Source: a virus. From it: a DNA stretch of 64,000 nt. The DNA is taken from the IMG/VR virus record IMGVR_UViG_3300036863_000086, positions 1-64,000 of that record; one strand, given 5' to 3'. Below are positions 49,997-63,430 of this stretch, piece after piece. How positions within the stretch are numbered: position 1 is the stretch's first letter; the number at the start of each line of letters is the position of its first letter. Under the pieces are notes generated by a model. That model was not told where the DNA came from, did no database searches, and saw only the letters and a program-made list of their open reading frames with translations. The position numbers and the translations under genes were made by a program.

Positions 49997-50734
49997 ATGG
50001 TCGTTGCTGCCAGAAATTGGGAGACGAATGCTGCCTTCTGGATTCGTATCATTCGAGAAAGGCTTGATCCCTACCGCACAGAACTGACTGATGATGCCGT
50101 GCTCAACGAGGTTGGTCCTGCCGAGGGACGGAGAATTCTCGATGCAGGCTGCGGTGAGGGATATATGTCGCGGCTGCTCGCACATCGAGGTGCCAGTGTT
50201 GTAGGAATCGATTCTTGCCAAGCATTGGTTCATGCAGCCCAAGATCACACCACAGAAGGTTTGAGTATTAGCTACGAGGTGGGCGACGTTGGAGCACTGC
50301 CACTAGCTAATACTCAATTCGATATTATCGTATGCAATCACCTCATCAACGACCTTCCCGATCCAGCTATCCCGTTCCAAGAGTTTGCTCGCGTCCTAAA
50401 ACCACGCGGGCGGCTTGTTATCCTTATGCTTCACCCGTGCTTCTCTATCCCCAGATCGACGGAACAGCGATCCAATGGAGGACTGATCAGTTCGGAGTAC
50501 TTTAGGGTGCGACGGATTGAAAAGCACTTCGAAATTGGCGGGGTTACATCGCCCACAACGGTCGTTGTATGGATAAGATCCATAGAGTCTTATAGTGAGC
50601 TGTTGTTCGGTGCCGGCTTCACTATAACTGGACTGCAAGAGCCACGCCCAACAGAGCAGTTACTGCAAGACCCTTGGTGGCGTGTGAGCTTCTCCCAACC
50701 TCGTTTTTTGTTGATAACTGCCAAGAGACGTTGA
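49997..50734 (+). CDS. class I SAM-dependent methyltransferase
   Basis: ILDAGCGEG, GID, FDII, E..RVLKPRGRL; AAGGA RBS. Confidence 0.9.
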   Translation: MVVAARNWETNAAFWIRIIRERLDPYRTELTDDAVLNEVGPAEGRRILDAGCGEGYMSRLLAHRGASVVGIDSCQALVHAAQDHTTEGLSISYEVGDVGALPLANTQFDIIVCNHLINDLPDPAIPFQEFARVLKPRGRLVILMLHPCFSIPRSTEQRSNGGLISSEYFRVRRIEKHFEIGGVTSPTTVVVWIRSIESYSELLFGAGFTITGLQEPRPTEQLLQDPWWRVSFSQPRFLLITAKRR

Positions 50735-53079: not shown

Positions 53080-53205
53080 ACAACACGTATTATAACTGGT
53101 TTAGAACTACAACTACTACTTTACCACCTATAATATGCCCTGTACTATATATATACTAATAGTATAGTATAGTAGTATAGGTACATAATTGAGTAGAATA
53201 TTGGT
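53080..53205. other. AT-rich low-complexity tract (candidate origin or terminus)
   Basis: TACTATATATATACTAATAGTATAGTATAGTAGTATA in a mid-GC genome. Confidence 0.45.
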
Positions 53206-53436
53206 CAGAACATGCCATTCGCGGAAAATAAAGGACACTCATATGCTCGTATCGGCATATTGGCTTGTCAAAGGCTTGTCAAAGTGTATGCACTTGCAGA
53301 AGACGCCATGACTGGTCACAGCAGGCCATATGTGGTCACCCGTCTCCCTATTGCCACTCATCACTGTCATTAGTTGACATGAGCGGTCAATTTTCGTCAA
53401 GACGCACCTTAGATCACATATGTCTGAATAGACCCG

Positions 53437-53466
53437 TTGCGCTCTGAGCGCCAGCTCTGGGACAAT
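53437..53466 (+). promoter_or_regulatory. putative early promoter
   Basis: TTGCGC-N18-(TGG)GACAAT immediately before the structured leader. Confidence 0.45.
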
Positions 53467-53471
53467 GGACT

Positions 53472-54215
53472 CTCCGGGCGGAGTATGCCCGGAGCGGTCC
53501 TTTGAGAACTACAGAGCGAGCGAGACCGGCTCTCCCGAGGGTTCCCTTGGGGAGCTGGGCGACCACCAGTCCCTTTCAGGGGAGCAGGAGGCCGAGACCA
53601 TCCGGGGAAGAGTGCATCCCTGGCAGGCCCAGCACGACCGTCAACGACGGATCAGGGAACCGCCAGGACACGCCGGAGCCGAAAGTTTCGCGGCATGTCG
53701 GATCACGCGCCTGGATTTTCCGACCAGGGAATGCCGACCATGCGACAGGGTTTCGATTAGGTTTCTCGCTCGCAACGTTCATTGAGAACTAAATAGACGA
53801 GAAAAGAGTAGCCGGAGAAATTGGCTTTGTGGTTTGCGCTTGATGAATACGTCGCGCAAACAGAAATCGGAATCAGTTTGTAGTTCTCGGAATTCTGGAC
53901 AAAGCTAAAAGTACCCTTGAGTTTGAGGCAAAAGCGCGAGCGTAGTGAAAACTTTAAAAGACCGAATTGCGATGATGTTCCTTAGCTGATTGATGTTGTG
54001 AGTCTCAGCGAAAGATTGAAATAGGGAATGAGCGAGGGTTGTCTGCGCGAAGACCGTTCGAGAGTCAATGACGTGCAATTCGTCATTGCTAGCGCAGTAG
54101 GAATAACCCTACTGTGGCATAGGCCACGATAAACTGACAAAGGCTACTCGCCACGTTTCAATAAGCCAAAGCTACAGCCGATTCACAATAGGCCGTAAAA
54201 CTAGGCGAAAGTGGA
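53472..54215 (+). ncRNA. long structured leader / candidate large ncRNA with two boxA-like motifs
   Basis: No credible ORF; stems 53516-25/53764-73, 53806-13/54142-49, 53501-15/53877-91; TTGAGAACTA at 53502 and 53782. Confidence 0.5.
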
Positions 54216-54321
54216 AATGCACATAGGCGCGTATTGACTGGCCATTTCGAGCAGTGAAAACCAAAGCATCAATTACTTATGGTAATGGTGCAAAGCTCGA
54301 AAAAAGAAAAGAGAAACCGAA

Positions 54322-54630
54322 ATGGCTGTTGAGATCAGGTACACGGACGACGAGGGCAACCTGCTGTTCACCACGCGGGACATGACTGTGGTGGAGAACT
54401 TCCAGAAGGCCGAGAAGAAGGTCGCGGCGCTGGCGGAGGCCGAGAAGATCCTGGCGCGGCGTGAGCGCCTGGTCAGGGAAGCGCTCGACACGCTGGCCAA
54501 GCTGCGGAAGGACGTCACCGAGGGCCTGCCGGACGGCGCGCGGGTTGCCAAGTCTGGCGACACCTACGCGATCACGTTCGAGCCGGAGGACAGCGCCAGC
54601 GCGCCGAGCGAGAACGGCGCGGCCAGCTAG
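54322..54630 (+). CDS. early hypothetical protein
   Basis: High-GC codon bias; enclosed by IR pair. Confidence 0.75.
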   Translation: MAVEIRYTDDEGNLLFTTRDMTVVENFQKAEKKVAALAEAEKILARRERLVREALDTLAKLRKDVTEGLPDGARVAKSGDTYAITFEPEDSASAPSENGAAS

Positions 54631-54796
54631 AACGCCGAGATCGGCGACAACTTCATACCGGGCGGCCGGCCCCAGCACCACGTAACACCGTAGCAACCGC
54701 AACAAAGCGAAATGGCCAGCCAATTCGCGCCTATGTGCAAAGTACGCGAGTTTTTGAAACGTGGATACATGCTTCCTAAGCAGGAAAAGCGATTTT

Positions 54797-54816
54797 GCCG
54801 CGCAAGCGGCTTTTTT
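54797..54816 (+). terminator. intrinsic terminator
   Basis: GCCGC-GCAA-GCGGC-TTTTTT. Confidence 0.7.
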
Positions 54817-54903
54817 GCTTTTCCAAGGGAAAGCAGGGAATTGAGAGTTTCTCGCGTCCACTCCAACAAAAAACAACTCCAATTGGTAAGTGGAGTGATC
54901 CAG

Positions 54904-55080
54904 ATGCGAAAAACCCTGTCCGACCTGTTTCTGTGGGCTGGTTGGACACTGGCCGATAAGGCCAGCCCAACAGAAACTCCAGCTTCCATGGACTACAGGG
55001 AAATGCTGCCGTTGTCCGAGCGGCATTTCTACGTCCAGCCGGTCGGGTTCCAGCCAAGCAAAAAGCGGGTGTCGGCATGA
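54904..55080 (+). CDS. early hypothetical protein
   Basis: GGAG RBS, ATG 54904. Confidence 0.55.
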   Translation: MRKTLSDLFLWAGWTLADKASPTETPASMDYREMLPLSERHFYVQPVGFQPSKKRVSA

Positions 55081-55295
55081 GACTCGCGGTTGCTGTGGTT
55101 GTGGTCGGTTGGTTGCTCGTGTTCGGCGCGATCGCGCTGCACACGGACTGGTCGGAAACGTCGGCTCCAGCAACGCCAACGTACGTCGTCCAGAACAACG
55201 AGGTCCAGACTCCTGTGGGAATGTGCCGAACGGAAGATTCCTGTTCGGTCGATTTCCACGGTGGTCAGTACACGATCCGGCAGGTGACGCCATGA
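55077..55295 (+). CDS. small membrane/secreted protein
   Basis: N-terminal TM helix; ATGA overlap. Confidence 0.6.
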   Translation: MRLAVAVVVVGWLLVFGAIALHTDWSETSAPATPTYVVQNNEVQTPVGMCRTEDSCSVDFHGGQYTIRQVTP

Positions 55296-55390
55296 CGCCG
55301 GAACAGCAGATTTTCGGGATTTACCTGATCCTGGTGATCGTGATACTCCAGCGGAAACTCTGGCATGACTTTGGCAAGCACGACACCTAG
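55292..55390 (+). CDS. small membrane peptide (32 aa)
   Basis: ATGA overlap; hydrophobic core. Confidence 0.45.
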   Translation: MTPEQQIFGIYLILVIVILQRKLWHDFGKHDT

Positions 55391-55506
55391 AGAGACCAAC
55401 AACGTGAGGAACTTTCAATTCCCTGCTTTCCCACGCTTGGGAGCATGTTTTGGCGAGTCATTTCCAACCTCTGGAAGAAATTCCAGGGAAAAAAGGAAGT
55501 GACAAG

Positions 55507-55962
55507 ATGAAAGCCAAGTGGTTTTACGACGTGGAGGTCGTGACCAATGGTGCTGTTTCGTCGCACCAGACGTTCACCTCCGACTGCTTCGACGGGGAAA
55601 CAGACCCGATGGCGGAATTCATCGCGGACGTGGAACACTTCACGAGCGGGTCCAGCAAGCCAACGGAGGTTTTCGTCCAGTTCCACGAGCACGAGCCGTT
55701 TTCCGATGGCGAGGATGTCTGTGGTCAGTTTGAAACGGACGGGCACCCGACCTATTCGTGGAACATGGAAAACGACGTTTCCAAGGTTCCGCAGAAGGTT
55801 CATGTGGTCGACTGGACTGGCGAGGATTTCCCGCATGGCGAGGAATGGTCGCCAGGGTTCGCGCCGTACGTGTTTCGCTGGACGTTCGATGACGACGCGG
55901 ACGTGGGGTTTCCGTGGTTTCCGCCGTCCATGACGTTTCGGTGGGATCGGCGCCATGACTGA
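55507..55962 (+). CDS. early hypothetical protein
   Basis: AAGGA RBS before ATG 55507. Confidence 0.65.
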   Translation: MKAKWFYDVEVVTNGAVSSHQTFTSDCFDGETDPMAEFIADVEHFTSGSSKPTEVFVQFHEHEPFSDGEDVCGQFETDGHPTYSWNMENDVSKVPQKVHVVDWTGEDFPHGEEWSPGFAPYVFRWTFDDDADVGFPWFPPSMTFRWDRRHD

Positions 55963-56137
55963 ACTTTCCACCAACCTGGAAACCGGCGAAACCTACAAAG
56001 CGAGGTTTCGGCGTCCTGATGGCGAGCTGGAAACGAAAGAATTCTCCGGCGCCGATTGGGATGCGTGCTGGAAGATGGCTGTTGACCATGCAGCCGCTTC
56101 GAACAGCAAACTCCAGATGTTCAAGATCCAGAAGTAA
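55955..56137 (+). CDS. early hypothetical protein
   Basis: Coupled ORF inside IR pair. Confidence 0.6.
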   Translation: MTELSTNLETGETYKARFRRPDGELETKEFSGADWDACWKMAVDHAAASNSKLQMFKIQK

Positions 56138-56241
56138 CGACGACGGTAACGATGCGAAATGACCCGCCAAAACATGCTCTCAAGTTTGCTTGGAAGCCTC
56201 TTGAATGAGCTGCTGCGCGAAATTCCAAGAAGGAGAACGAC

Positions 56242-56637
56242 ATGGGAATTTCCGCAAGGATGATGCCCGACGTGTTTTCCGAGAACGGGAAAACCTACCA
56301 CGAGCACCTTGTTTCGGTGCATGCGAGCGAGCGGTCCAACTACGAAATCCGGTGTTCTTGTGGGCACTTGGGTTTCGTCGCGTCGGTGTCCGACGTGTTC
56401 GCGGCAAACTGCGCCCTTGACCACGTCAAGGAAATGCAGCCGGACTCCGGCTATCAGGAAGCCGTTCGATCTGCTGTAACCGAGTATCACGCCAGGAAAG
56501 ACTTCGAGCAGGACTTTTCGGAGAAGATGATCCTCCTGAACAGAGGACTCCACCCCTGCAAGAAAGTTGCAGATGGCCAGCACTATTTTTCGGTGGTGAC
56601 TGGCATCTGCCACGCCTGCGGCGCGCTGGAGAAGTAA
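56242..56637 (+). CDS. early hypothetical protein with Cys/His motifs
   Basis: AAGGAG RBS; CSCG..H, CHACG. Confidence 0.7.
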   Translation: MGISARMMPDVFSENGKTYHEHLVSVHASERSNYEIRCSCGHLGFVASVSDVFAANCALDHVKEMQPDSGYQEAVRSAVTEYHARKDFEQDFSEKMILLNRGLHPCKKVADGQHYFSVVTGICHACGALEK

Positions 56638-56748
56638 CTCCAAACGCGCAGTAACTCATTCATGAGGGTTCCAAGCGTTGCTTAGGAAGCTGTAGAAAGC
56701 TGGAAATGAGGGTTTCTCGCTCCAACTGGTAACGATGCAAAGGAATGC

Positions 56749-56922
56749 ATGATGGCCGAGAACCCTGAGAACCCCAAGGATGGTTTGGCGTCGATTGTCG
56801 ACGTGAAGAACTTCTTCGAGTACGAGAACATCTCGAAGTTCCGCGCCGACTGGCAGAAGTTGTCCGACGTTGACAAGGTGCAGCTCCGGCTGGGCATCGG
56901 CGAGGGTACCCTGACCTACTGA
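56749..56922 (+). CDS. early hypothetical protein (57 aa)
   Basis: Read manually; AAGGA RBS; ...DVKNFF...FRADW..LSD.DK.QLR.GI..GTLTY. Confidence 0.65.
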   Translation: MMAENPENPKDGLASIVDVKNFFEYENISKFRADWQKLSDVDKVQLRLGIGEGTLTY

Positions 56923-57054
56923 GTTTTTCCACGCGAGGAACCTTCATTTCCAGCTTTCTACTGCTCAAGTAGCAAGTTAACGGGATTGTCAGTGTGCGGG
57001 ATACATGCATTGGTTGGCTCCTCCACGAACAACGAACAACGAGGAGAACAGCCA

Positions 57055-58461
57055 ATGGCAAACCTACTATTTCCCCGCAGCAAGCCTCCGTCATTTTCTC
57101 GTGCCAACCCAACCACGATGGACCTCGAAAGGATCATCGAAGAAATCGCGGACGATCCTTTCCAGATGGACACCGGCATGCGGATCATGATGAAGCGGAA
57201 GAAGGAGTTCAACAACGAGCTGGCCGCAAAACTGACCGGGATCGCGCTCAACCCCGTTTCCAAGGCGTACCTGGAAAACCGCCTCGACGATATCTGGTCC
57301 GCGTCGTCAGGGAGGATCGTCCTTGGCAATGCCGGAACCACGACCATGCCGGAAGTCATCATCGGCAGCGGTTTCCACGCTGCCGTGTACGCCGCGATCC
57401 GGGTCCAGGCGGGATTTCCCAAGCCATTCGTGCTCGAACGAGGAAAGCGCGCTGGCGGCGTGTTTGCCGTTCCTGGGCCAGCGTTCTTCCTGAATTCGCG
57501 GAACCGCCCAGGCGGAATCGGGCTGGCAGGAGATTCCGGCGCAAACCCAAACTACCTGCCCGGCGCACCGATCCAGACCGCGAACATCTCCAGCGGCGAC
57601 TACCAGACCAACGCGGACATGGCGCTCGTGATCCGGCTGACACTCGCCAAGTACGCGAACGTGCTCACGGAGTTTCCTGTCAGCGAAGTCGATTACTTCG
57701 CCGAGCGATACACACTCCTTTCGACAGGTGGTCGGAAACTCCAAGCGTCTCGAATCATCGACGCGCGCGGACTCGGCGACCCGCTCGGCAAGACCACGGC
57801 GAACGGAACAACCATCCTGACGTTTCCGCAGTTCATGGAAAGGATGGGCAGCGAAACCTGGCCGCTGCGGGATATTCGTCGTGCGGCAGTGCTCGGCAGC
57901 GGCGATGCTGCGCGGTGTTCGCTGGAAGCGTTGCTCGGAATTGGTCCACTTCCGGCAATGTCCATTCCTGCGCTCGACATGGTCGATCGGGTCGACGCCT
58001 ACGGGGAACTTCCCGACACGATGGAATCATGGTGCGACCGGGAACGTGGCCGGTACAACAAAATCGGCCGATTCCTCCGGCCGGATCGGTTCGGCATCAA
58101 GCGGTTGAACGTGTACGCGGATGGCGAGCGGCCGTCGCCAGTTTCCATCCCGAACGAAACGGTGCTGGTGAACGGCCGCAGCTACGACCTCGTCATTCTC
58201 GCAACCGGAAATCGTGAGGAGTCCGTTCCCGGCCTGGGAACGTCCAGCGACTTCGAACGCTACAACGTTAGCGACGTTGCAGTCGCCACGCGGAGTTACT
58301 ACTCCGGTGGCGACCTTTTCCGAGTTGGACCGCACGCGCGGCTCGGGTTTTCTCGGCTGGAGCGGAATGCCGGCGTCGCGGAAATCCCCAACAACGCGGT
58401 CTCGATGTTCCGGCTGGCCAGCAAAACCGCCACGCTCGCAGCAACACTTCCCGGCATCTGA
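57055..58461 (+). CDS. FAD/NAD(P)-dependent oxidoreductase (two Rossmann motifs, monooxygenase-like)
   Basis: VIIGSGFHAA...VLER...GG; AVLGSGDAA; YDLVILATG; GAGGAG RBS. Confidence 0.7.
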   Translation: MANLLFPRSKPPSFSRANPTTMDLERIIEEIADDPFQMDTGMRIMMKRKKEFNNELAAKLTGIALNPVSKAYLENRLDDIWSASSGRIVLGNAGTTTMPEVIIGSGFHAAVYAAIRVQAGFPKPFVLERGKRAGGVFAVPGPAFFLNSRNRPGGIGLAGDSGANPNYLPGAPIQTANISSGDYQTNADMALVIRLTLAKYANVLTEFPVSEVDYFAERYTLLSTGGRKLQASRIIDARGLGDPLGKTTANGTTILTFPQFMERMGSETWPLRDIRRAAVLGSGDAARCSLEALLGIGPLPAMSIPALDMVDRVDAYGELPDTMESWCDRERGRYNKIGRFLRPDRFGIKRLNVYADGERPSPVSIPNETVLVNGRSYDLVILATGNREESVPGLGTSSDFERYNVSDVAVATRSYYSGGDLFRVGPHARLGFSRLERNAGVAEIPNNAVSMFRLASKTATLAATLPGI

Positions 58462-58740
58462 ATCACTACCGGGTAACTGGTGCCAGCCAATGCTTGCATC
58501 CTTCACAACGACAGTCCCGTTTACTTGCTACTTGAGCGCTGGACTTTTCAGATGGACCACAGAACAACGCGATATGTGCTGCGCTCTGCGTTTGAGGAAC
58601 GTCAAGGTTGGAGCAACCATAAAAGACACTCCACTTGCCAAGGTTCCCGTTCTGTGGTCCTTTTGAGAAGTCCAGCTTGTTGTTTGGCGTTTGAAAGTGG
58701 ATTGTTTCGTCCGATGGTAAGAACAACAAAGGATGGAACA

Positions 58741-58941
58741 ATGAGCGAGTACCAGCGAAAGATTTCGGTCGATGACCTGCATGTCGGGACGTTCGTGAAA
58801 GTGCGCGACAACTTCGGCGGCTTGTGGTCGGCGGAAGTCATCGGATTCACCAGGAACGGAACGATCGAGTTCATCGTTTCTGGTGACGACAAGGTTCGTC
58901 GTGGCACGCTGACCACGATTGCAGAAATCGTGCAGCCATGA
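58741..58941 (+). CDS. small SH3-like beta protein
   Basis: AAGGA RBS; DL.VG..V.V. Confidence 0.55.
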   Translation: MSEYQRKISVDDLHVGTFVKVRDNFGGLWSAEVIGFTRNGTIEFIVSGDDKVRRGTLTTIAEIVQP

Positions 58942-59180
58942 CCACCATGCTGCATCGTAGGGTCGCTATGCAGAGCGTAGCGATCAAGGCGATGTTTTCC
59001 AAGGCCGAGATGCTCGAACTTCCACGGCGCGCGTTACTGGCGATGTTGAACGAGAACCTTCCGCTCGTTGATCCGAGCGATAGCAAGAAAGTTCGACTCG
59101 CTCGGATCGCCACCATTCAGGATCGAGTGAACCTCGCGCGATACCGCGCTGGCCTGAAAAGGTGGGAGCAACCACGATGA
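58938..59180 (+). CDS. hypothetical protein (tandem paralog 1)
   Basis: MFSKAEMLELPRRALLAMLNEN...QDR...LARY. Confidence 0.6.
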   Translation: MTTMLHRRVAMQSVAIKAMFSKAEMLELPRRALLAMLNENLPLVDPSDSKKVRLARIATIQDRVNLARYRAGLKRWEQPR

Positions 59181-59425
59181 TGCTCGTCGAAGAATTCCTC
59201 AAGTTGCTCGACGAGAAGATCGCCGAGCAGGACGTGAAGATTTTTTGGATGTTTTCCAAGGCCGAGATTTTCGAGCTGAATCGGCGTGAGCTGCTGGCGC
59301 TGTTGAACGAAAACGATCCAAAAGCGGAAGTCCAGGCTGTCCTGCAAGATCGGCTGGATGACGTGGCCGGCCGGGCGGATCTCGCGCGATATCTCGCCGA
59401 GCGAAAAGAAGCTGGTGCGGCATGA
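59177..59425 (+). CDS. hypothetical protein (tandem paralog 2)
   Basis: MFSKAEIFELNRRELLALLNEN...QDR...LARY. Confidence 0.6.
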   Translation: MMLVEEFLKLLDEKIAEQDVKIFWMFSKAEIFELNRRELLALLNENDPKAEVQAVLQDRLDDVAGRADLARYLAERKEAGAA

Positions 59426-59578
59426 TGCTGCCAGTCGCAGTCATCAAGGAAATCGAGTCCACCTACGCACTGCTCTGGGCTGACTGAATCAACCTCGAAA
59501 CAATCCACTTCCACGCGCCAAACAACAATCCAAAAGTATGTTGGCGGGTTTTTCCATGTCTGGTAAGGGAAGTGCGAC

Positions 59579-60061
59579 ATGGAGTTTCGCAAGGGTCCAA
59601 CACTGGACGAATTCTGTGAAATCGTCCAGAAGATTTCCGACGAGCGCTACGACAGCAACGTGATCGTCGGCGACTCGGAAACACTGTCCAAGAACGGAAC
59701 AACCTTCCGGGCGACGTTGCGCGTCAAGGATTCCAAGAAATTCGGCGCGAGAACATCATCGCGCGGCCGGCACACGCCAGCGGCAAGCTGGGAAGCGTTC
59801 CGCGATGTTCTCCGCGAGGTGTTCGACCGCTGGCCGAACACCTACGTTTCTTCGATGCTCGTGTTCATGCTGGGACTGTACGATCCCTGCGAGCATCGCA
59901 AGGCGAGCGGCGAACCGTATCGGCGCCACAAGGAACGGCATCGCCGGCGCGGCTACAACGGAAAAGCACAATTCGAGGAAATGTACCCTGAGACGGCCGC
60001 CGTCAATTGGGGTTCCCAGATATATTGGGCATGCCTCCCTGATCTTTCCATCGAGCGGTGA
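59579..60061 (+). CDS. early hypothetical protein
   Basis: AAGGGA RBS; inside IR pair. Confidence 0.65.
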   Translation: MEFRKGPTLDEFCEIVQKISDERYDSNVIVGDSETLSKNGTTFRATLRVKDSKKFGARTSSRGRHTPAASWEAFRDVLREVFDRWPNTYVSSMLVFMLGLYDPCEHRKASGEPYRRHKERHRRRGYNGKAQFEEMYPETAAVNWGSQIYWACLPDLSIER

Positions 60062-60065
60062 CACG

Positions 60066-60398
60066 ATGCCGGCTATCGTGACCACAGTGAGGGAAATCCC
60101 AACCGCGCCGTACTACGTTCTATCCAACGACAGATTCATGAGCGGTTGGGGCCGGGCGCATACATCGGGCGCGTTTGGAAATCCGTATCCCGACAGAGGG
60201 GCGTTGACCAACACCATCATCCTGCCGTGCGAAAACTGGACGGAAGCGCTGATTGTCAAGGAAAACGCCGAACGTCGTACCGATCAGACGAGAGTTCGGA
60301 TCGTCGTGAACAAACCGCGACTCCGTTCTGAGCACGTCTATTCGCTCCTGACAAGACTAACCGCAGAGTGGTGGTTCCAGCCGGGGGCGTTCAAGTAA
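60066..60398 (+). CDS. early hypothetical protein
   Basis: YYV..D.FMSGWG.A motif; ATG 60066. Confidence 0.65.
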   Translation: MPAIVTTVREIPTAPYYVLSNDRFMSGWGRAHTSGAFGNPYPDRGALTNTIILPCENWTEALIVKENAERRTDQTRVRIVVNKPRLRSEHVYSLLTRLTAEWWFQPGAFK

Positions 60399-60440
60399 CC
60401 AACGAAAAACCCGCCAACTTACTTTTGGAAGATCCGAGTA

Positions 60441-60947
60441 TCGTGCAATTAATTGGGAACAGTAACGGCGAGAATCACGATAGCTGAGAGCCCGTAAAAG
60501 GGAATATACCAATATCGTGATTAGGGCACGATCGCCCTGGGCCGGTCGGTTCAATCCGGCTGGATCGCAACCAAACAGCGGAAGAACAGAGCCAGCTTAA
60601 CCGCTGGCATCCGGTTACTGTTCCCAATTGATTGTACGACAAATTAGAATTGAGATAGGGAACGCACCCGGACGGCATAACCCTGCTAGGTTTGCTAAGG
60701 GTCCGCCGTAGCAGCGGAAACGGGATATAGAGGGACCGCCCTATCTCAAAACCACGCGCCTAGCTGCAAAACGGCCTCGGGCCGGATCTGGTTCTCAGCG
60801 TGGGTTCTAGGGAAGCACGAATAGGAGCTGGTAATAAGGCTTCCCAGCTAACTTTCGCAGGATCTAAGGACCACAGGGATGCAGGTCTACAACCGCATTT
60901 CGACAAAACCCAAATGGTGAGGTTTCGTCGTTATCCCTGTGGTCCTT
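60441..60947 (+). ncRNA. cluster of multi-branched structured non-coding elements
   Basis: Closing stems 60441-66/60614-39, 60650-60/60739-49, 60866-80/60933-47; T-loop-like GGTTCAATCC. Confidence 0.6.
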
Positions 60948-60983
60948 TGATTCTACGACGAGACAACGAACAAGGGTAAACAG

Positions 60984-61196
60984 ATGGATTTCTACCCGAT
61001 TTGGGGAGAACGGCTTTATGAGTCGTCCGATGGACGATACCGGCTTTCCAGAGATTCTCATGGGCGCTGGTGGATTCTCCGCGTCCGGCAGTTCAACTCC
61101 GGTCCAAAGACGATGCTGGTTCCCTATTCGTTCCGAACGCTCGATAACGCAATCGAAGCGTTCGATGATGGAACCGTCAAAATTTGGGAACGATGA
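60984..61196 (+). CDS. hypothetical protein
   Basis: AAGGG RBS. Confidence 0.55.
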   Translation: MDFYPIWGERLYESSDGRYRLSRDSHGRWWILRVRQFNSGPKTMLVPYSFRTLDNAIEAFDDGTVKIWER

Positions 61197-61203
61197 CTCT
61201 GCG

Positions 61204-61275
61204 GCGCCTGTACCTTAATGGAAAGAGGGATAGTTTCCTAAACTATTTGTGCAGGTTCGATTCCTGCCAGGCGCG
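61204..61275 (+). tRNA. tRNA-Arg(CCT)
   Basis: GCGCCTG/CAGGCGC; ATAGT-TTCCTAA-ACTAT; GTTCGATTC. Confidence 0.85.
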
Positions 61276-61276
61276 C

Positions 61277-61419
61277 AAGAAACTTGGGCTAGCCGCGTAC
61301 TCCACTACGGTAATGGGAGAGCTATACGAAAGTGCCCGGCAACCTGAAAGCGCCTTACGGTGTATCCACCTTACGGTGCATCCATGTCGACGCCGGTAAG
61401 CCTTCCGCCCAAGTTTCTT
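61277..61419 (+). ncRNA. structured non-coding element between tRNAs
   Basis: 13-bp closing stem AAGAAACTTGGGC/GCCCAAGTTTCTT. Confidence 0.45.
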
Positions 61420-61425
61420 TTTCAT

Positions 61426-61503
61426 GGCGAGAGTAGCTTAATTAGGTAAAGCGCTTGCTTGTGGCGCAAGTTATTGCCGGTTCAAATCCGGTCTCTCGCC
61501 CCA
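61426..61503 (+). tRNA. tRNA-His(GTG) with G-1 and encoded CCA
   Basis: CTTGC-TTGTGGC-GCAAG; 8-bp acceptor. Confidence 0.9.
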
Positions 61504-61504
61504 A

Positions 61505-61582
61505 TGGTCGGTAGCTTAATTCACTCGGCAAAGCAGCGGTCTCCAAAACCGCGAGATGGGGGTTCGAGTCCCTTCCGACCAG
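61505..61582 (+). tRNA. tRNA-Trp(CCA)
   Basis: GCGGT-CTCCAAA-ACCGC; GTTCGAGTC. Confidence 0.9.
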
Positions 61583-61586
61583 CTAC

Positions 61587-61661
61587 GGCGTGGTAGCTCA
61601 GTTTGGTTAGAGTGCTGCCCTGTCAAGGCAGAGGTCGCGGGTCCAAATCCCGTCCACGCCG
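61587..61661 (+). tRNA. tRNA-Asp(GTC)
   Basis: CTGCC-CTGTCAA-GGCAG; variant T loop TCCAAAT. Confidence 0.88.
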
Positions 61662-61684
61662 CAATTGTGGGGAAAGGACAATCA

Positions 61685-61876
61685 GTGTCAAAGCTAAAAG
61701 TTACTGTAACTGGAATTCTAGATGTTCCAGAAGATCAGCTAGAACCGGCATACGAAGCATCCTCAATCCAAGAAGCCGCCAAAAACTTAGTCGCCTGGTA
61801 TAAAGATGGCTCAGCAGACCTTTTTGCTGACCTATCCGTGGTGGATGAGTTGAAGGTAACTGTCGAGCCGGTATAA
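61685..61876 (+). CDS. hypothetical protein (63 aa)
   Basis: GAAAGGA RBS before GTG 61685. Confidence 0.6.
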   Translation: MSKLKVTVTGILDVPEDQLEPAYEASSIQEAAKNLVAWYKDGSADLFADLSVVDELKVTVEPV

Positions 61877-61977
61877 TTCGGAGTTGCCAGACCCGAGTCT
61901 CCATACCTGCGTACGAGGATTTCTGGAGATAAGCCGAAAACCTAAAGCGCTACGGGAAAGTAGGCATCTGGCACCAA

Positions 61978-62051
61978 GCGCCATTCTGCTAAACGGATGA
62001 GGCTACCACTCTCTCACGGTGGAGGTAGGAGTTCGAATCTCCTATGGCGCG
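61978..62051 (+). tRNA. tRNA-Glu(CTC)
   Basis: CCACT-CTCTCAC-GGTGG; GTTCGAATC. Confidence 0.85.
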
Positions 62052-62082
62052 CGAAATTGTTGGACTGGAAGGAAGTTGAACA

Positions 62083-62214
62083 ATGGATAAGATAGTGCAA
62101 ATCGAGATCGAATATGACGACGGCAGTACGGCTTTCTGGACAATCAAGGAAGACGACGAACGGCTGGCAAAAGTCGAGGAAATCCTCGGAACGCCAGATC
62201 AGCAGAATCTCTAG
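62083..62214 (+). CDS. small acidic protein (43 aa)
   Basis: Read manually; AAGGA RBS. Confidence 0.55.
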   Translation: MDKIVQIEIEYDDGSTAFWTIKEDDERLAKVEEILGTPDQQNL

Positions 62215-62220
62215 CAACAT

Positions 62221-62293
62221 GCGCGGTTCGGCTAATGGTTTAGGCTATCAGACTTTCAATCTGATGATGCGGGTTCGAATCCCGTACTGCGCA
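62221..62293 (+). tRNA. tRNA-Glu(TTC)
   Basis: TCAGA-CTTTCAA-TCTGA; GTTCGAATC. Confidence 0.9.
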
Positions 62294-62650
62294 CAATGGG
62301 GCCGGACGACCGGATAAGCATAGGAACGAGCGCGCTAAAGTTTTGGGTCGGTTGGGCGCGAACGTGAGATCGTCATTCCTATCGCCCCAGATTTTTGCTG
62401 AGAACACAGGCCCGCCGGGTACGCGCAACGCCAGTGTGGTTCAACGGTTGCATTCTGGAACGATGGACGTGGTTAGGGACCGACATCGTGCCGATTGGTC
62501 GCGTACTGCGCCCCCTTTACGGAAACTTCTAGATCCATATCCGCGCGGATTTAGAAAGTCCATGAAGGACCGAGCCTTATCATGGGAGGGTTAAATCGAG
62601 ATGGCGGCATAACTCCCTCCCACCCTTTTCGGAAACCCAAGGATAGCGAA

Positions 62651-62926
62651 GTGCAGATCATGTTTCACTACATGGATAAGCGACGGAACCACGAAATCGC
62701 CGACGCTCCATGGCGAAAGTTGGACTTCGTTCCCAACAACATGCTGCGCGATCTTGACCATTGGCACGATGCAGAAACATTTCCATTCTACGACCCGGAC
62801 CTAGATGCCAGAGACATCGCCGACGTGCCACATGGTCATTGGATCGCGCACAAGCACGGCAGATACCAAGAACACGCGCATTACGTTCTCTGCACGGAAG
62901 ACCATGAAAGTGAAGGAGCTAAATGA
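62651..62926 (+). CDS. His/Asp-rich hypothetical protein
   Basis: AAGGA RBS; start 62651 or 62660. Confidence 0.55.
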   Translation: MQIMFHYMDKRRNHEIADAPWRKLDFVPNNMLRDLDHWHDAETFPFYDPDLDARDIADVPHGHWIAHKHGRYQEHAHYVLCTEDHESEGAK

Positions 62927-63014
62927 ATTACGATCCGTACGATGACGACGAGCCAATTGACAGCGGCGACGAAGTTGGTCCATAGCCATCACGAAAGTTT
63001 TTAAAAGGTGAGTG

Positions 63015-63320
63015 ATGGCGACTGTTCGAATCAGCGAAAAGGATCTCCGAGATCCAAGATTCAAGCGCCTGCGAAACATGGTCAAAGAAGCAGGCGGGCT
63101 TGATGATGAGAATGACGAGGTTGTCGACAAGGAAGAATTTGGCGATCGACTTGTCCCACGAGAACTGACACTTTCGGAGCGCATCGAAAGCATTACGTTT
63201 GTGAAGCAATTCTCGGGCTACAGCAAAGAGCAAGTTGATGCGTTTCTCGATGATGTCGGTCGGCACGTCGAAAAGATGGAAAAAGAAATCCGTCGGCTTC
63301 GTCGGCGACTCGGAAGGTAA
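63015..63320 (+). CDS. DivIVA-domain-containing protein
   Basis: ITFVKQFSGYSKEQVDAFLDDV...E...LR matches DivIVA N-terminal F....GY...EVD.FLD. Confidence 0.7.
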   Translation: MATVRISEKDLRDPRFKRLRNMVKEAGGLDDENDEVVDKEEFGDRLVPRELTLSERIESITFVKQFSGYSKEQVDAFLDDVGRHVEKMEKEIRRLRRRLGR

Positions 63321-63325
63321 CAAAA

Positions 63326-63397
63326 CCGGGTGTCATTCAACGGTTAGGATCTCTGCCTTCCAAGCAGATGATGCGGGTTCGATTCCCGTCACCCGGT
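63326..63397 (+). tRNA. tRNA-Gly(TCC)
   Basis: TCTGC-CTTCCAA-GCAGA; GTTCGATTC. Confidence 0.9.
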
Positions 63398-63430
63398 CTA
63401 CGTTTTTCCGTAACCGAAACGAGGGTAAGG

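What the first reader, a model, noticed from the sequence alone, without database searches (positions are those of the whole stretch)
54218..60639. Early region tiled by back-to-back long-range stems, each closing a gene cassette (panhandle architecture)
Seen: consecutive, non-nested inverted-repeat pairs 54218-49/54708-39, 54827-57/55402-32, 55436-64/56156-84, 56188-219/56645-76, 56692-720/56933-61, 56963-57018/58482-537, 58538-65/58649-76, 58677-709/59496-528, 59529-54/60404-29 and 60441-66/60614-39. Each pair is 26-56 bp, mostly of unique sequence, and encloses 1-3 complete genes (loops up to about 1.46 kb) or a non-coding insert. From the second pair on, the next left arm starts 0-15 nt after the previous right arm. 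Many differences are G-U compatible on the + strand (all 3 in pair 2, both in pairs 5 and 10), and pairs 2 and 5 are homologous with compensatory changes, which points to RNA pairing. Known analogy: RNase III processing stems flanking rRNAs and in T7/SPO1 early transcripts. Inference: one long early transcript is cut into end-protected (possibly circularised) mRNA modules, and the stems may also define exchangeable gene cassettes. I know of no description of this tiling, but could not search for one.
Basis: partly seen in the sequence, partly recalled or inferred. Interest (0 to 1): 0.88.

Follow-up and report, generated by a model that had tools for sequence, protein, structure and literature searches.

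The report
Phage early genes enclosed by RNA stems
In this uncultured soil phage, each early gene unit lies between two flanking sequences that pair only with each other, much as bacteria bracket their ribosomal RNAs for cutting, so one long early message can probably be cut into separate messages with clamped ends.

Summary
All 10 inverted-repeat pairs are at the stated coordinates (26-59 nt, 83-96% complementary), and an 11th lies at 60855-80/60933-58. They are side by side, never nested, and found only at 54.2-61.0 kb of a 72.5-kb siphophage record. No shuffle comes close. All 11 appear in minimum-energy RNA folds.

The pairing looks like sense-strand RNA. Across 59 stems (11 here, 48 in related phages), G.U outnumbers A.C 57:23 and U.U outnumbers A.A 25:1. 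Stems 2 and 5 are paralogues with 5 compensatory double changes and one paired deletion. Four soil DNA runs showed no inverted segments.

Nine of 80 phage loci related through the terminase carry the same tiling. The stems have a perfect inner part of about 13 bp and a mid-stem weak spot. A 34-bp 16S rRNA stalk in two Dactylosporangium genomes has paired mid-stem mismatches too, and its core 9-mer occurs twice in the phage leader.

Best reading (0.6): rRNA-style processing helices around mRNAs, cut by host RNase III. Cutting, circularisation and a single transcript are not shown. In relatives, genes swap between stems rather than moving with them.

Earlier agents of this scan reported the same layout in at least five other phage genomes. 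Seven literature searches found no description.

The parts
53400..54217 (+). Non-coding leader ahead of the array. It holds two copies of TTGAGAACT (53502, 53782).
   Evidence: Sequence. In the MFE fold, 53504-53515 pairs with 53877-53888. The motif lies in the 5' strand of the 16S stalk of two Dactylosporangium genomes.
54218..54739 (+). Cassette 1: arms 54218-54249 / 54708-54739 (32 nt, 94%), enclosing ORF 54322-54630 (102 aa).
54797..54820 (+). Intrinsic-terminator-like hairpin followed by a T run, in the 87-nt gap between cassettes 1 and 2.
54827..55432 (+). Cassette 2: arms 54827-54857 / 55402-55432 (31 nt, 90%; all 3 mismatches are G.U). It encloses three overlapping small ORFs: 54904-55080, 55077-55295 and 55292-55390.
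55436..56184 (+). Cassette 3: arms 55436-55464 / 56156-56184 (29 nt, 93%), enclosing ORFs 55507-55962 and 55955-56137.
56188..56676 (+). Cassette 4: arms 56188-56219 / 56645-56676 (32 nt, 88%), enclosing ORF 56242-56637 (131 aa).
56688..56965 (+). Cassette 5: arms 56688-56720 / 56933-56965 (33 nt, 91%), enclosing ORF 56749-56922 (57 aa). Its arms are paralogous to those of cassette 2.
56963..58537 (+). Cassette 6: arms 56963-57021 / 58479-58537 (59 nt, 83%), enclosing ORF 57055-58461 (468 aa, FAD-oxidoreductase-like).
58538..58676 (+). Cassette 7: arms 58538-58565 / 58649-58676 (28 nt, 89%), enclosing an 83-nt structured non-coding insert.
   Evidence: z -7.3.
58677..59528 (+). Cassette 8: arms 58677-58709 / 59496-59528 (33 nt, 91%). 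It encloses ORFs 58741-58941, 58938-59180, about 59177-59425, and a 21-codon ORF at 59422-59487.
59529..60429 (+). Cassette 9: arms 59529-59554 / 60404-60429 (26 nt, 96%; one U.U mismatch), enclosing ORFs 59579-60061 and 60066-60398.
   Evidence: In runs X4 and X5 the SNP 60419 T>A turns the U.U mismatch into U-A.
60441..60639 (+). Cassette 10: arms 60441-60466 / 60614-60639 (26 nt, 92%), enclosing a 147-nt structured non-coding insert.
   Evidence: z -9.3.
60855..60958 (+). The inner arm GGACCACAG is shared with cassette 7.
   Evidence: and 93 (z -8.0).
61204..63398 (+). tRNA cluster on the same strand directly downstream (Arg, His, Asp, Glu, Glu, Gly).

Best explanation
The arms are the two strands of long-range RNA helices in the plus-strand early transcript(s). 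Each helix closes a loop holding one translation unit (1-4 coupled small ORFs) or a structured non-coding RNA. The transcript therefore folds into a row of abutting stem-closed modules, like the leader-trailer helices that bracket 16S and 23S rRNA.

Each helix has three parts: a variable outer half, a mid-stem weak spot, and a perfectly paired inner part of about 13 bp. The weak spot is mostly a U.U or A.C mismatch 13-19 bp from the loop side in this phage. In many relatives it is two mismatches two base pairs apart.

Most likely the host's RNase III cuts both strands at or near the weak spot. That would release each module as an mRNA or small RNA whose 5' and 3' ends stay clamped in the inner helix. 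The clamp would shield the ends from exonucleases and insulate each gene's folding and translation from its neighbours.

Shown: the helices exist in the sequence, are far beyond chance, are conserved as a layout in related phages, and carry sense-strand-specific mismatch patterns and compensatory changes.

Inferred: that they form in vivo, that RNase III cuts them, where it cuts, and what the clamp does.
For: (1) Existence and significance:.

(2) Strand-specific signature. I examined 59 stems: 11 from the window and 48 from 12 TerL-related loci. Setting aside 40 A.C pairs that belong to a conserved motif, G.U against A.C on the coding strand is 57:23 (binomial p 1.8e-4). U.U against A.A is 25:1 (p 8e-7). 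For the window alone the figures are G.U 16, A.C 7, U.U 8, A.A 0.

(3) Compensatory change inside this genome. Stems 2 and 5 align with 5 double substitutions that keep pairing, one G.U/G-C exchange and one deletion of a whole pair. No pair is broken, and two G.U pairs are conserved (my column-by-column reading).

(4) Compensatory change between phages. In L109_2352 against L112_6258, 5 of 27 aligned pairs changed on both sides and none is broken.

(5) The layout is shared. Of 80 TerL-related viral loci (993,214 nt), 9 carry two or more abutting stems of this kind (7 of them with 4-12), 7 carry a single inverted repeat passing the same filter, and 64 carry none. The genes lie on the strand that gives the asymmetry, in 46 of 48 cases by ORF cover, some only marginally.

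(6) Common anatomy. The inner 12-13 bp are Watson-Crick in nearly all stems. 28 of 48 relatives' stems have two true mismatches two pairs apart, centred 13-18 bp from the inner end; the C-W-W-A subset (20 stems) is centred at 15-16 bp in 19 of the 20. 9 of 11 window stems have a true mismatch; by my count, 8 of the 13 true mismatches in the ten shorter stems lie 13-19 bp from the inner end.

(7) Host-type parallel. In two Dactylosporangium genomes the 16S gene is enclosed by a 34-bp leader-trailer helix with mismatches G.G and A.C two pairs apart. Both genomes encode RNase III. In Enterobacteriaceae such helices are 25-40 bp and the RNase III site lies mid-helix (PMC10250234, passages).

(8) The arms hug the coding units. 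By my reading' arm to start codon is 22-72 nt and stop codon to 3' arm is 5-18 nt (77 nt for cassette 1). No sigma-70-type promoter was found inside 54.2-60.6 kb on the plus strand.

(9) Three loops hold non-coding RNAs with fold z-scores of -7 to -9. This fits a processing role better than a purely translational one.

(10) A population SNP (60419 T>A in 2 of 4 runs) converts the U.U mismatch of stem 9 into a U-A pair.
Against: - No RNA data exist for this phage, so no end has been mapped and cleavage is unproven.
- The window-only G.U excess is not significant on its own (16:7).
- In the relatives, raw counts run the other way (A.C 56, G.U 41). The G.U excess appears only after I set aside the conserved C-W-W-A motif, a step chosen after seeing the data.
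- On the antisense strand that motif would read as two G.U pairs. The motif alone therefore does not tell the strands apart; the U.U/A.A asymmetry does.
- Sense-strand single-stranded DNA would give the same mismatch statistics as RNA.
- A second SNP (60445 G>C, runs X4 and X5) would turn a G.U pair of stem 10 into a C.U mismatch unless its partner also changed. No partner change is among the 40 rows shown, and 106 rows were not shown.
- A terminator-like hairpin after cassette 1 argues against one unbroken transcript unless it is read through.
- The mid-stem clustering in the window is modest and partly forced, because the way stems are delimited keeps mismatches away from the ends.
- The host is not known. 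Its assignment rests on the gene's nearest genomic homologues (22 of 22 are Micromonosporaceae or close relatives) and on a 9-nt motif.
Confidence: 0.6

Rival explanations
1. The helices form in RNA but act without being cut. They would be insulators and clamps that keep each translation unit folding on its own, block exonucleases and Rho along the polycistronic RNA, or bring stop and start codons together so ribosomes re-initiate on the same unit.
For: The evidence for RNA-level pairing is the same. Stops lie 5-18 nt from the 3' arm and starts 22-72 nt from the 5' arm, so the two ends of each unit are close together. Known single-gene precedents of 5'/3'-UTR pairing are icaR (PMC3868564) and hbs (PMC5737220), both seen only as search listings.
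Against: By established knowledge of RNase III, near-perfect duplexes of 26-59 bp are expected substrates in any host that has the enzyme, so escaping cleavage would need a special explanation. This reading gives no function to the conserved mid-stem weak spot or to the outer half of the helix. The loops holding non-coding RNAs gain nothing from ribosome recycling.
Confidence: 0.2
2. The helices are recognised and cut, or bound, by a factor other than host RNase III. This could be a phage-encoded sequence- or structure-specific RNA-binding protein or nuclease.
For: In several relatives the inner arm carries a conserved box (..CATGTCCG / CGGACATG..) and a conserved C-W-W-A motif on both strands at a fixed 15-16 bp from the inner end. 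That pattern looks like a specific recognition site.
Against: The window's own stems share no common box; only stems 2/5 and 7/11 resemble each other. That favours a sequence-independent reader of double-stranded RNA. No RNase III or dsRBD gene was found in the 72.5-kb record, which is 82% complete. The cassette and neighbouring proteins I scanned gave no nuclease family, but many ORFs were not scanned.
Confidence: 0.1
3. The repeats act on DNA. Each segment would be invertible (inverton-like switching), or the arms would serve as recombination handles for cassette exchange.
For: Inverted repeats flanking a segment are the classic layout of invertible DNA. In the strains of runs X2 and X3, a replacement begins exactly at the inner end of the 5' arm of cassette 2 (joint 54856 to 54973). 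In relatives, ORFs are exchanged between stems.
Against: The only two joints listed in four soil DNA runs are skips, and none changes strand; contigs can hide rare forms. Each pair has its own sequence, so no single site-specific recombinase site exists. The U.U/A.A (25:1) and G.U/A.C (57:23) asymmetries tied to the coding strand are not expected for double-stranded DNA sites. The exchange breakpoints in relatives lie at short direct repeats inside the arms, not at the arms.
Confidence: 0.05
4. The hairpins form in single-stranded DNA of the coding-strand sense, for example during replication or recombination, rather than in RNA.
For: T.T and G.T mismatches are also the mildest in DNA, so the mismatch statistics do not separate single-stranded DNA from RNA.
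Against: The arms track translation units, not replication features. Non-coding structured RNAs and a tRNA cluster lie in the same series and strand. This is a tailed double-stranded-DNA phage with terminase, portal and tape-measure genes.
Confidence: 0.05

Closest known systems
Leader-trailer (processing) helices around 16S and 23S rRNA in bacterial rrn operons, cut by RNase III (PMC10250234: abstract, introduction and passages read; PMC6582327: search listing only)
   Same: Long-range complementary flanks enclose a functional RNA. The length is similar (25-40 bp there, 26-59 here). There is a mid-helix special site. The units are co-transcribed in series with tRNAs. The 34-bp 16S helix found here in two Dactylosporangium genomes also has two mid-stem mismatches two pairs apart.
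   Different: Here the loops hold protein-coding units and small non-coding RNAs, not rRNA. Eleven helices abut with 0-11 nt between most of them. Every helix has its own sequence. Cleavage has not been shown.
RNase III sites in T7 and SPO1/SP82 early polycistronic transcripts
   Same: A phage early transcript is divided into separate mRNAs by a host double-strand-specific RNase. Processed ends lie in helices that stabilise the message. Internal loops sit at the cut site.
   Different: As I recall them, those sites are local hairpins between genes. Here the two strands lie on either side of the gene, so the gene is the loop and both ends of each product would be held in one helix.
5'-UTR/3'-UTR pairing in single bacterial mRNAs: icaR of S. 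aureus (PMC3868564) and hbs of B. subtilis (PMC5737220), search listings only
   Same: The two ends of one mRNA pair with each other, with consequences for RNase action and translation.
   Different: Those are single genes with short pairings. They are not a tiled series and not near-perfect helices of 26-59 bp.
Start-associated sequences and extended SAS of Cluster K mycobacteriophages (PMC3203893, passages read)
   Same: The relatives' arrays have a conserved box directly ahead of the ribosome-binding site. The box is preceded by its complement 5-16 nt upstream, forming a local inverted repeat with a variable spacer, as in ESAS. The function of ESAS is also unknown.
   Different: SAS/ESAS are local and conserved in sequence. 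No gene-enclosing long-range helix is described in the passages I read. The window's own stems have no such box.
Correia repeat enclosed elements of Neisseria (PMC2649163, search listing only)
   Same: Inverted repeats that, once transcribed, can be bound or cut by RNase III and alter expression of adjacent genes.
   Different: Those are small multicopy mobile elements with one consensus repeat. They do not enclose genes and are not tiled.
PeSL cassettes of T4-type phages and integron attC cassette arrays (both recalled, not read)
   Same: Arrays of small promoterless or modular genes separated by structured repeats that favour gene shuffling. In the relatives here, ORFs swap at short conserved boxes.
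   Different: PeSL and attC are local stem-loops between genes and share a consensus. attC acts on single-stranded DNA with an integrase. Here the arms enclose the gene, are private to it, and no integrase lies beside the array.

Membership tests
rRNA-type leader-trailer processing helix (RNase III substrate) | Complementary sequences on both sides of the functional RNA form a long helix (25-40 bp in Enterobacteriaceae). | tested here: met
   There are 11 helices of 26-59 nt, 83-96% complementary, each enclosing a unit. All are kept in MFE folds. The size range comes from PMC10250234.
rRNA-type leader-trailer processing helix (RNase III substrate) | Pairing is maintained by covariation. | tested here: met
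   Stems 2 and 5 show 5 double changes, 1 paired deletion and 0 broken pairs. Between phages, one case shows 5 of 27 pairs changed on both sides and 0 broken. No close relatives of this phage were available for a formal test.
rRNA-type leader-trailer processing helix (RNase III substrate) | Cut by RNase III in vivo or in vitro. | not testable with these tools
   No RNA run is listed for this sequence. RNase III is present in two candidate-host-family genomes and absent from the phage record.
rRNA-type leader-trailer processing helix (RNase III substrate) | The enclosed RNA is a ribosomal RNA. | tested here: not met
   The loops hold ORFs or unknown non-coding RNAs. Rfam finds no rRNA there. 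It therefore works like the family but is not a member of it.
T7-type intercistronic RNase III site | A local hairpin between genes. | tested here: not met
   The two strands lie 83-1457 nt apart, on either side of the genes. The definition is recalled.
Invertible DNA segment (inverton) | Both orientations are present in the population. | tested here: not met
   The only joints listed in 4 soil DNA runs are two skips, none changing strand. Contigs can miss rare variants.
Invertible DNA segment (inverton) | A shared recombinase site in the repeats. | tested here: not met
   The arms are mutually unrelated except for 2/5 and 7/11.
MITE or Correia-like element | Many copies of one terminal-inverted-repeat consensus, small size, no enclosed gene. 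| tested here: not met
   Each pair is private, and most loops hold genes of up to 1.4 kb.
Integron cassette array (attC) | A local imperfect palindrome between cassettes, plus an integrase. | tested here: not met
   Adjacent arms (3' arm of one cassette, 5' arm of the next) are not complementary to each other, apart from one weak 7-pair hairpin. The flanking genes scanned include no integrase, but not all ORFs were scanned.
SAS/ESAS of Cluster K mycobacteriophages | A conserved 13-bp motif just upstream of start codons, with or without a 17-bp local inverted repeat. | tested here: not met
   No shared motif lies ahead of the window's start codons. A comparable box exists only in some relatives.

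The most novel reading that the evidence does not exclude
The early operon is built as a mimic of a host ribosomal RNA operon. It would have four features in common with one:
- a leader carrying the host's 16S-stalk core motif, which could recruit the rRNA antitermination and processing machinery;
- a private leader-trailer helix around every gene;
- structured small RNAs in some loops;
- tRNAs at the end.

The near-zero spacing between helices would let each finished helix hold the next 5' arm at the RNA exit of the polymerase until its partner emerges, as a relay. That would allow arms up to 1.46 kb apart to find each other during transcription.

RNase III would then release a set of end-clamped mRNAs and small RNAs. 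The private outer halves would act as address codes. Each stem would become a plug-in slot into which new genes can be recombined without disturbing their neighbours.
Probability: 0.25. Interest if true: 0.92.

Novelty: new variant of a known kind. Interest (0 to 1): 0.8.

Why it matters
If the helices work as proposed, a whole clade of uncultured soil phages organises its first-expressed genes by a principle so far known only for ribosomal RNA: every unit is looped out by its own long-range helix and cut free with its two ends paired.

That would be a general, sequence-independent way to give many unrelated small genes uniform stability and insulated translation from a single promoter. It would also explain how early regions can swap genes freely.

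It offers a natural counterpart to the synthetic insulators used in operon design. It also gives a concrete, testable case of a phage borrowing the host's rRNA maturation and possibly antitermination machinery.

The mid-stem weak spot at a fixed distance from the loop predicts where the cut should fall, so the hypothesis can be tested directly.

Tried and rejected
**Close relatives for formal covariation**
- DNA search of 54000-61000 against 50,697 phage records found no match.
- A protein-pattern scan of viral contigs with the 468-aa gene found no relative.
- The closest TerL in viral contigs is 63% identical and in cultured phages 36.6% (Arthrobacter and Microbacterium phages).
- An R-scape-type test on this phage's own stems was therefore not possible.

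**Pair counts across homologous cassettes**
- Totals were 223 double changes, 6 single, 40 broken and 141 unchanged.
- These counts are inflated because several pairs are out of register or sit in unrelated stems. I use only the well-registered examples.

**RNA evidence**
- No RNA holder was listed.

**Coverage in the soil runs**
- Run X3 has almost no cover at 56010-56531 and 60186-60446. No contig joins across these stretches, so I draw nothing from them.

**Outer helix around the whole array**
- None was found between 53300-54230 and 60400-64500; the best score was 14.5.

**Known RNA families**
- Rfam found nothing but tRNA at gathering scores. At E up to 1 there were only chance-level hits in 53300-61300.

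**Proteins**
- 10 cassette proteins had no Pfam family.
- Against PHROGs, 2 of 10 matched families of unknown function.
- The 468-aa protein has no relative of solved structure by sequence.
- I did not search for RNA ligase or RtcB. Circularisation therefore lacks support, but it is not excluded.

**Leader motif in relatives**
- TTGAGAAC occurs at chance level in the 80 TerL loci: 19 hits in 0.99 Mb.
- The rrn-like motif is therefore specific to this phage, not a feature of the class.

**Conserved box of relatives**
- A scan of viral contigs for it returned only the two contigs already in hand.

**The gene itself as cause of the stems**
- 0 of 22 bacterial loci holding the homologue have a flanking stem scoring 18 or more; one has a marginal 15.
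- The five metagenome loci with the closest homologue (62-63%) also have none.
- A different phage (L058; terminase and portal) encloses its 43%-identical homologue in its own 32-nt stem.

**Literature**
- Seven searches found no description of gene-enclosing tiled helices in phage mRNAs.
-, which searched for motif strings, returned only irrelevant papers.
- Subscription journals and supplementary files were not searchable, so an older description could exist there.
- Two papers on the mycobacterial rrn nut site were not held. Whether TTGAGAACT corresponds to an actinobacterial boxA or boxC rests on analogy only.

Full report
**What the window is.** The window covers bases 1-64000 of a 72,476-nt virus record estimated 82% complete. 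It encodes a tape-measure protein, portal, large terminase, minor tail proteins, an endolysin and a DNA polymerase, so it is a tailed phage. The structural genes lie on the minus strand at about 6-43 kb. From about 53.4 kb a plus-strand block begins: a non-coding leader of about 800 nt, the region of the finding (54.2-61.0 kb), and then a cluster of tRNA genes on the same strand at 61.2-63.4 kb. Earlier notes of this scan place TIGR-Tas guide arrays at 44-49.5 kb; I did not re-examine them.

**The observation.** Arms are 26-59 nt and 83-96% complementary. Loops are 83-1457 nt.
- The pairs are consecutive and never nested. Spacings between one right arm and the next left arm are 87, 3, 3, 11, -3, 0, 0, 0, 11 and 215 nt.
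- Over the whole record, nothing outside 54.2-61.0 kb scores above 20 on a G.U-tolerant stem score, while the eleven score 20-38.5.
- Thirty dinucleotide-preserving shuffles gave a best score of 15. The real region has ten stems at 18 or more.
- Minimum-energy folds of three overlapping 2.1-2.6 kb RNA pieces kept all eleven helices almost completely.
- Reading the sequence, eight loops hold one to four plus-strand ORFs with ribosome-binding sites and ATGA-type overlaps. Three loops (58566-58648, 60467-60613, 60881-60932) are non-coding but strongly structured, with z-scores of -7.3, -9.3 and -8.0.
- The arms bracket the coding units closely: 22-72 nt from 5' arm to start codon, and 5-18 nt from stop codon to 3' arm (77 nt for cassette 1).

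**RNA or DNA.** The window's mismatches are 16 G.T, 8 A.C and 15 others, 9 of which are T.T. That is suggestive but too few to decide, so I looked for relatives.

No close relative exists in the phage or viral-contig collections. Eighty viral loci with a terminase 48-63% identical were retrieved. Nine of them carry the same layout: rows of abutting arm pairs of about 30 nt, each enclosing about 200-400 nt (L109, L111, L112, L128, L130, L132, L148 with 4-12 each; L127 and L143 with 2). Seven more have one pair, and 64 have none within the 10 kb either side of the terminase that I held. In these loci the enclosed genes lie on the strand opposite to the terminase, as in the window.

I oriented all 59 stems (11 window, 48 relatives) by coding strand and counted non-Watson-Crick positions.
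- U.U against A.A is 25:1 (p 8e-7).
- G.U against A.C is 57:23 (p 1.8e-4), after setting aside 40 A.C pairs that belong to a conserved motif described below.
- Without that step the relatives show A.C 56 against G.U 41. The G.U result therefore depends on a choice made after seeing the data. The U.U/A.A result does not.

Such asymmetry tied to the coding strand is not expected for sites that act as double-stranded DNA. It does not separate RNA from single-stranded DNA of the same sense.

Four soil DNA runs holding 70-91% of the region's sampled words showed only two joints, both skips and neither changing strand. No inversion was seen, with the caveat that contigs hide rare forms.

**Compensatory change.**
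- Within the window, stems 2 and 5 are paralogous. Aligned column by column, they differ by five double substitutions that each keep a Watson-Crick pair, one G.U/G-C exchange and one deletion of a complete pair. No pair is broken, and two G.U pairs are conserved in both.
- A consequence is that the two stems can no longer cross-pair cleanly.
- Between phages, 14 cassette pairs with homologous proteins were found. Where the arms are in register, the changes are compensatory, for example 5 of 27 pairs changed on both sides and none broken in L109_2352 against L112_6258. The summed counts of that call are inflated by register shifts, so I do not use them.
- In the population data, 60419 T>A (runs X4, X5) turns the single U.U mismatch of stem 9 into U-A.
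- Against this, 60445 G>C in the same runs would turn a G.U pair of stem 10 into C.U unless its partner changed too, and I could not see whether it did.

**Anatomy of a stem.** In nearly all 59 stems the inner 12-13 bp are perfectly paired, and the defects sit in the middle.
- In 28 of 48 relatives' stems, two true mismatches lie exactly two pairs apart, centred 13-18 bp from the inner end.
- In 20 of them the motif is 5'-C-W-W-A-3' on both strands (C.A, two A-U pairs, A.C). Its centre lies 15-16 bp from the inner end in 19 of the 20 but 12-18 bp from the outer end. The distance therefore seems measured from the loop side.
- In the window, 9 of 11 stems have a true mismatch. By my count, 8 of the 13 true mismatches in the ten shorter stems lie 13-19 bp from the inner end. 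Most are U.U.

A dyad-symmetric weak spot in the middle of a helix of about 30 bp is what one would expect for the cut site of a dimeric double-strand RNase that leaves 2-nt 3' overhangs. This draws on established knowledge of RNase III and is my inference. A cut there would leave each module with its two ends held in a perfect helix of about 13 bp.

**A host-type parallel.**
- The 468-aa gene of loop 6 has no Pfam family of its own. Some of its homologues are labelled FAD-dependent oxidoreductase.
- Its 22 homologues in species-representative genomes are all in Micromonosporaceae or close relatives.
- In two complete Dactylosporangium genomes, every 16S gene listed (4 of 4) has TTGAGAACT 137-143 nt upstream.
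[quoted passage not shown] Mismatches G.G and A.C lie two pairs apart inside the motif.
- Both genomes encode RNase III. The phage record encodes neither RNase III nor a dsRNA-binding domain.
- For Enterobacteriaceae, Warner et al. [quoted passage not shown]
- They also describe a model in which boxC is held near the RNA exit channel while the rRNA loops out, until the trailer emerges.
- The phage leader contains TTGAGAACT twice (53502, 53782). These are the only forward copies in 72.5 kb. In the minimum-energy fold the first copy forms the 5' strand of a helix with 53877-53888.
- The motif is not enriched in the relatives. This link is therefore specific to this phage and presumably to its host.

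**Cassettes and exchange.** In the relatives the opposite is seen.
- L112_5919 and L132_4880 encode proteins 80% identical. Their DNA aligns from a short conserved box just ahead of the ribosome-binding site to a second copy of that box at the start of the 3' arm. The arms themselves are unrelated (a second case is).
- Cassette order also differs between these two phages.
- The stems thus behave as fixed slots and the ORFs as inserts that swap at direct repeats.
- The window has no such box.
- The 468-aa gene is stem-enclosed in the window and, with an unrelated 32-nt stem, in another phage (L058). It is not stem-enclosed in any of 22 bacterial loci or in the five metagenome loci with the closest homologue.
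- The stem is therefore a property of the phage context, not of the gene.

**Mechanism and its limits.** I conclude that the arms are RNA helices of the early transcript, with about 0.85 confidence for RNA-level pairing. I put about 0.6 on the full model: they are processing helices of the rRNA leader-trailer type, cut by host RNase III near the mid-stem weak spot to release end-clamped mRNAs and small RNAs.

Three things remain unproven: cleavage, the position of the cut, and the benefit of the clamp. A terminator-like hairpin with a T run after cassette 1 (54797) means that either cassette 1 is partly a unit of its own or the polymerase reads through. The rrn-like leader motif makes read-through by an antitermination complex an attractive guess, but it is untested. 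No sigma-70-type promoter was found inside the array, although actinobacterial promoters would escape that scan. Circularisation has no support.

**Novelty.** Seven full-text searches found no description of gene-enclosing, tiled helices in phage mRNAs. The nearest items are listed under Closest known systems. Subscription journals and supplements were not searchable. Earlier follow-up agents of this scan reported the same layout in at least five other uncultured phage genomes and also found no publication. Those are notes, not independent evidence, although I found the layout independently in nine further loci.

New in this report:
- the sense-strand U.U/A.A and G.U/A.C statistics over 59 stems;
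- the three-part stem anatomy, with a weak spot at a fixed distance from the loop;
- the parallel with a candidate-host 16S stalk, and the presence of its core motif in the phage leader;
- the finding that ORFs swap between stems.

I class it as a new variant of a known kind: rRNA-type processing helices applied, tiled, to phage mRNAs.

Noticed in passing
window 53400-54217: The non-coding leader holds TTGAGAACT at 53502 and 53782, the only forward copies in the 72.5-kb record. The same 9-mer sits mid-way in the 5' strand of the 34-bp 16S leader-trailer helix of two Dactylosporangium genomes. In the MFE fold, 53504-53515 pairs with 53877-53888 and closes a structured domain of about 360 nt.
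   Followed up: partly
window 54797-54820: A GC-rich 5-bp hairpin followed by TTTTTTGCTTTT looks like an intrinsic terminator. It lies in the only long gap (87 nt) inside the coding part of the array, between cassettes 1 and 2.
   Followed up: no
window 57055-58461; L058 9983-11359: A 468-aa protein has no Pfam family of its own, but some homologues are labelled FAD-dependent oxidoreductase. Its nearest genomic homologues (50-55% identity) are all in Micromonosporaceae or close relatives. A 43%-identical copy in another phage (L058) has its own unrelated 32-nt closing stem.
   Followed up: partly
window 58566-58648, 60467-60613, 60640-60854, 60881-60932: These non-coding inserts and one spacer have strong predicted structure (cassette fold z-scores -7 to -9) and no Rfam match. 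Cassettes 7 and 11 share the inner arm GGACCACAG. They may be small RNAs released by the same processing.
   Followed up: partly
own genome beyond the window: 65293-65439, 69106-69262, 72135-72255: Shorter stems (17-24 nt) each close about 70-120 nt in the tRNA and guide-array region.
   Followed up: no
L132 5380-8200 (minus strand), L112, L128, L109: Relatives carry a lineage-specific box. The 5' arm ends in CATGTCCG, followed 5-16 nt later by CGGACAT and AAGGAG, and CGGACATG occurs again at the start of the 3' arm. The box gives a local alternative hairpin and marks the breakpoints of ORF exchange. The same box recurs in the leader of about 450 nt downstream of an AT-rich promoter-like stretch.
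   Followed up: partly
window 53090-53200: An AT-rich block with many overlapping TATAGTA/TACTA repeats lies just upstream of the presumed early promoter region.
   Followed up: no
window 49997-50734: This ORF matches class I SAM-dependent methyltransferase domains (PF08241, E 8.5e-23).
   Followed up: no
window 61510-61576: Rfam gives a weak tRNA match (36 bits) between tRNA-His and tRNA-Asp that ARAGORN did not call. It may be a degenerate or unusual tRNA.
   Followed up: no
window 54856-54973 in runs X2 and X3: Strain variants replace 116 nt starting exactly at the inner end of the 5' arm of cassette 2. The arm is kept while the start of the loop differs.
   Followed up: no
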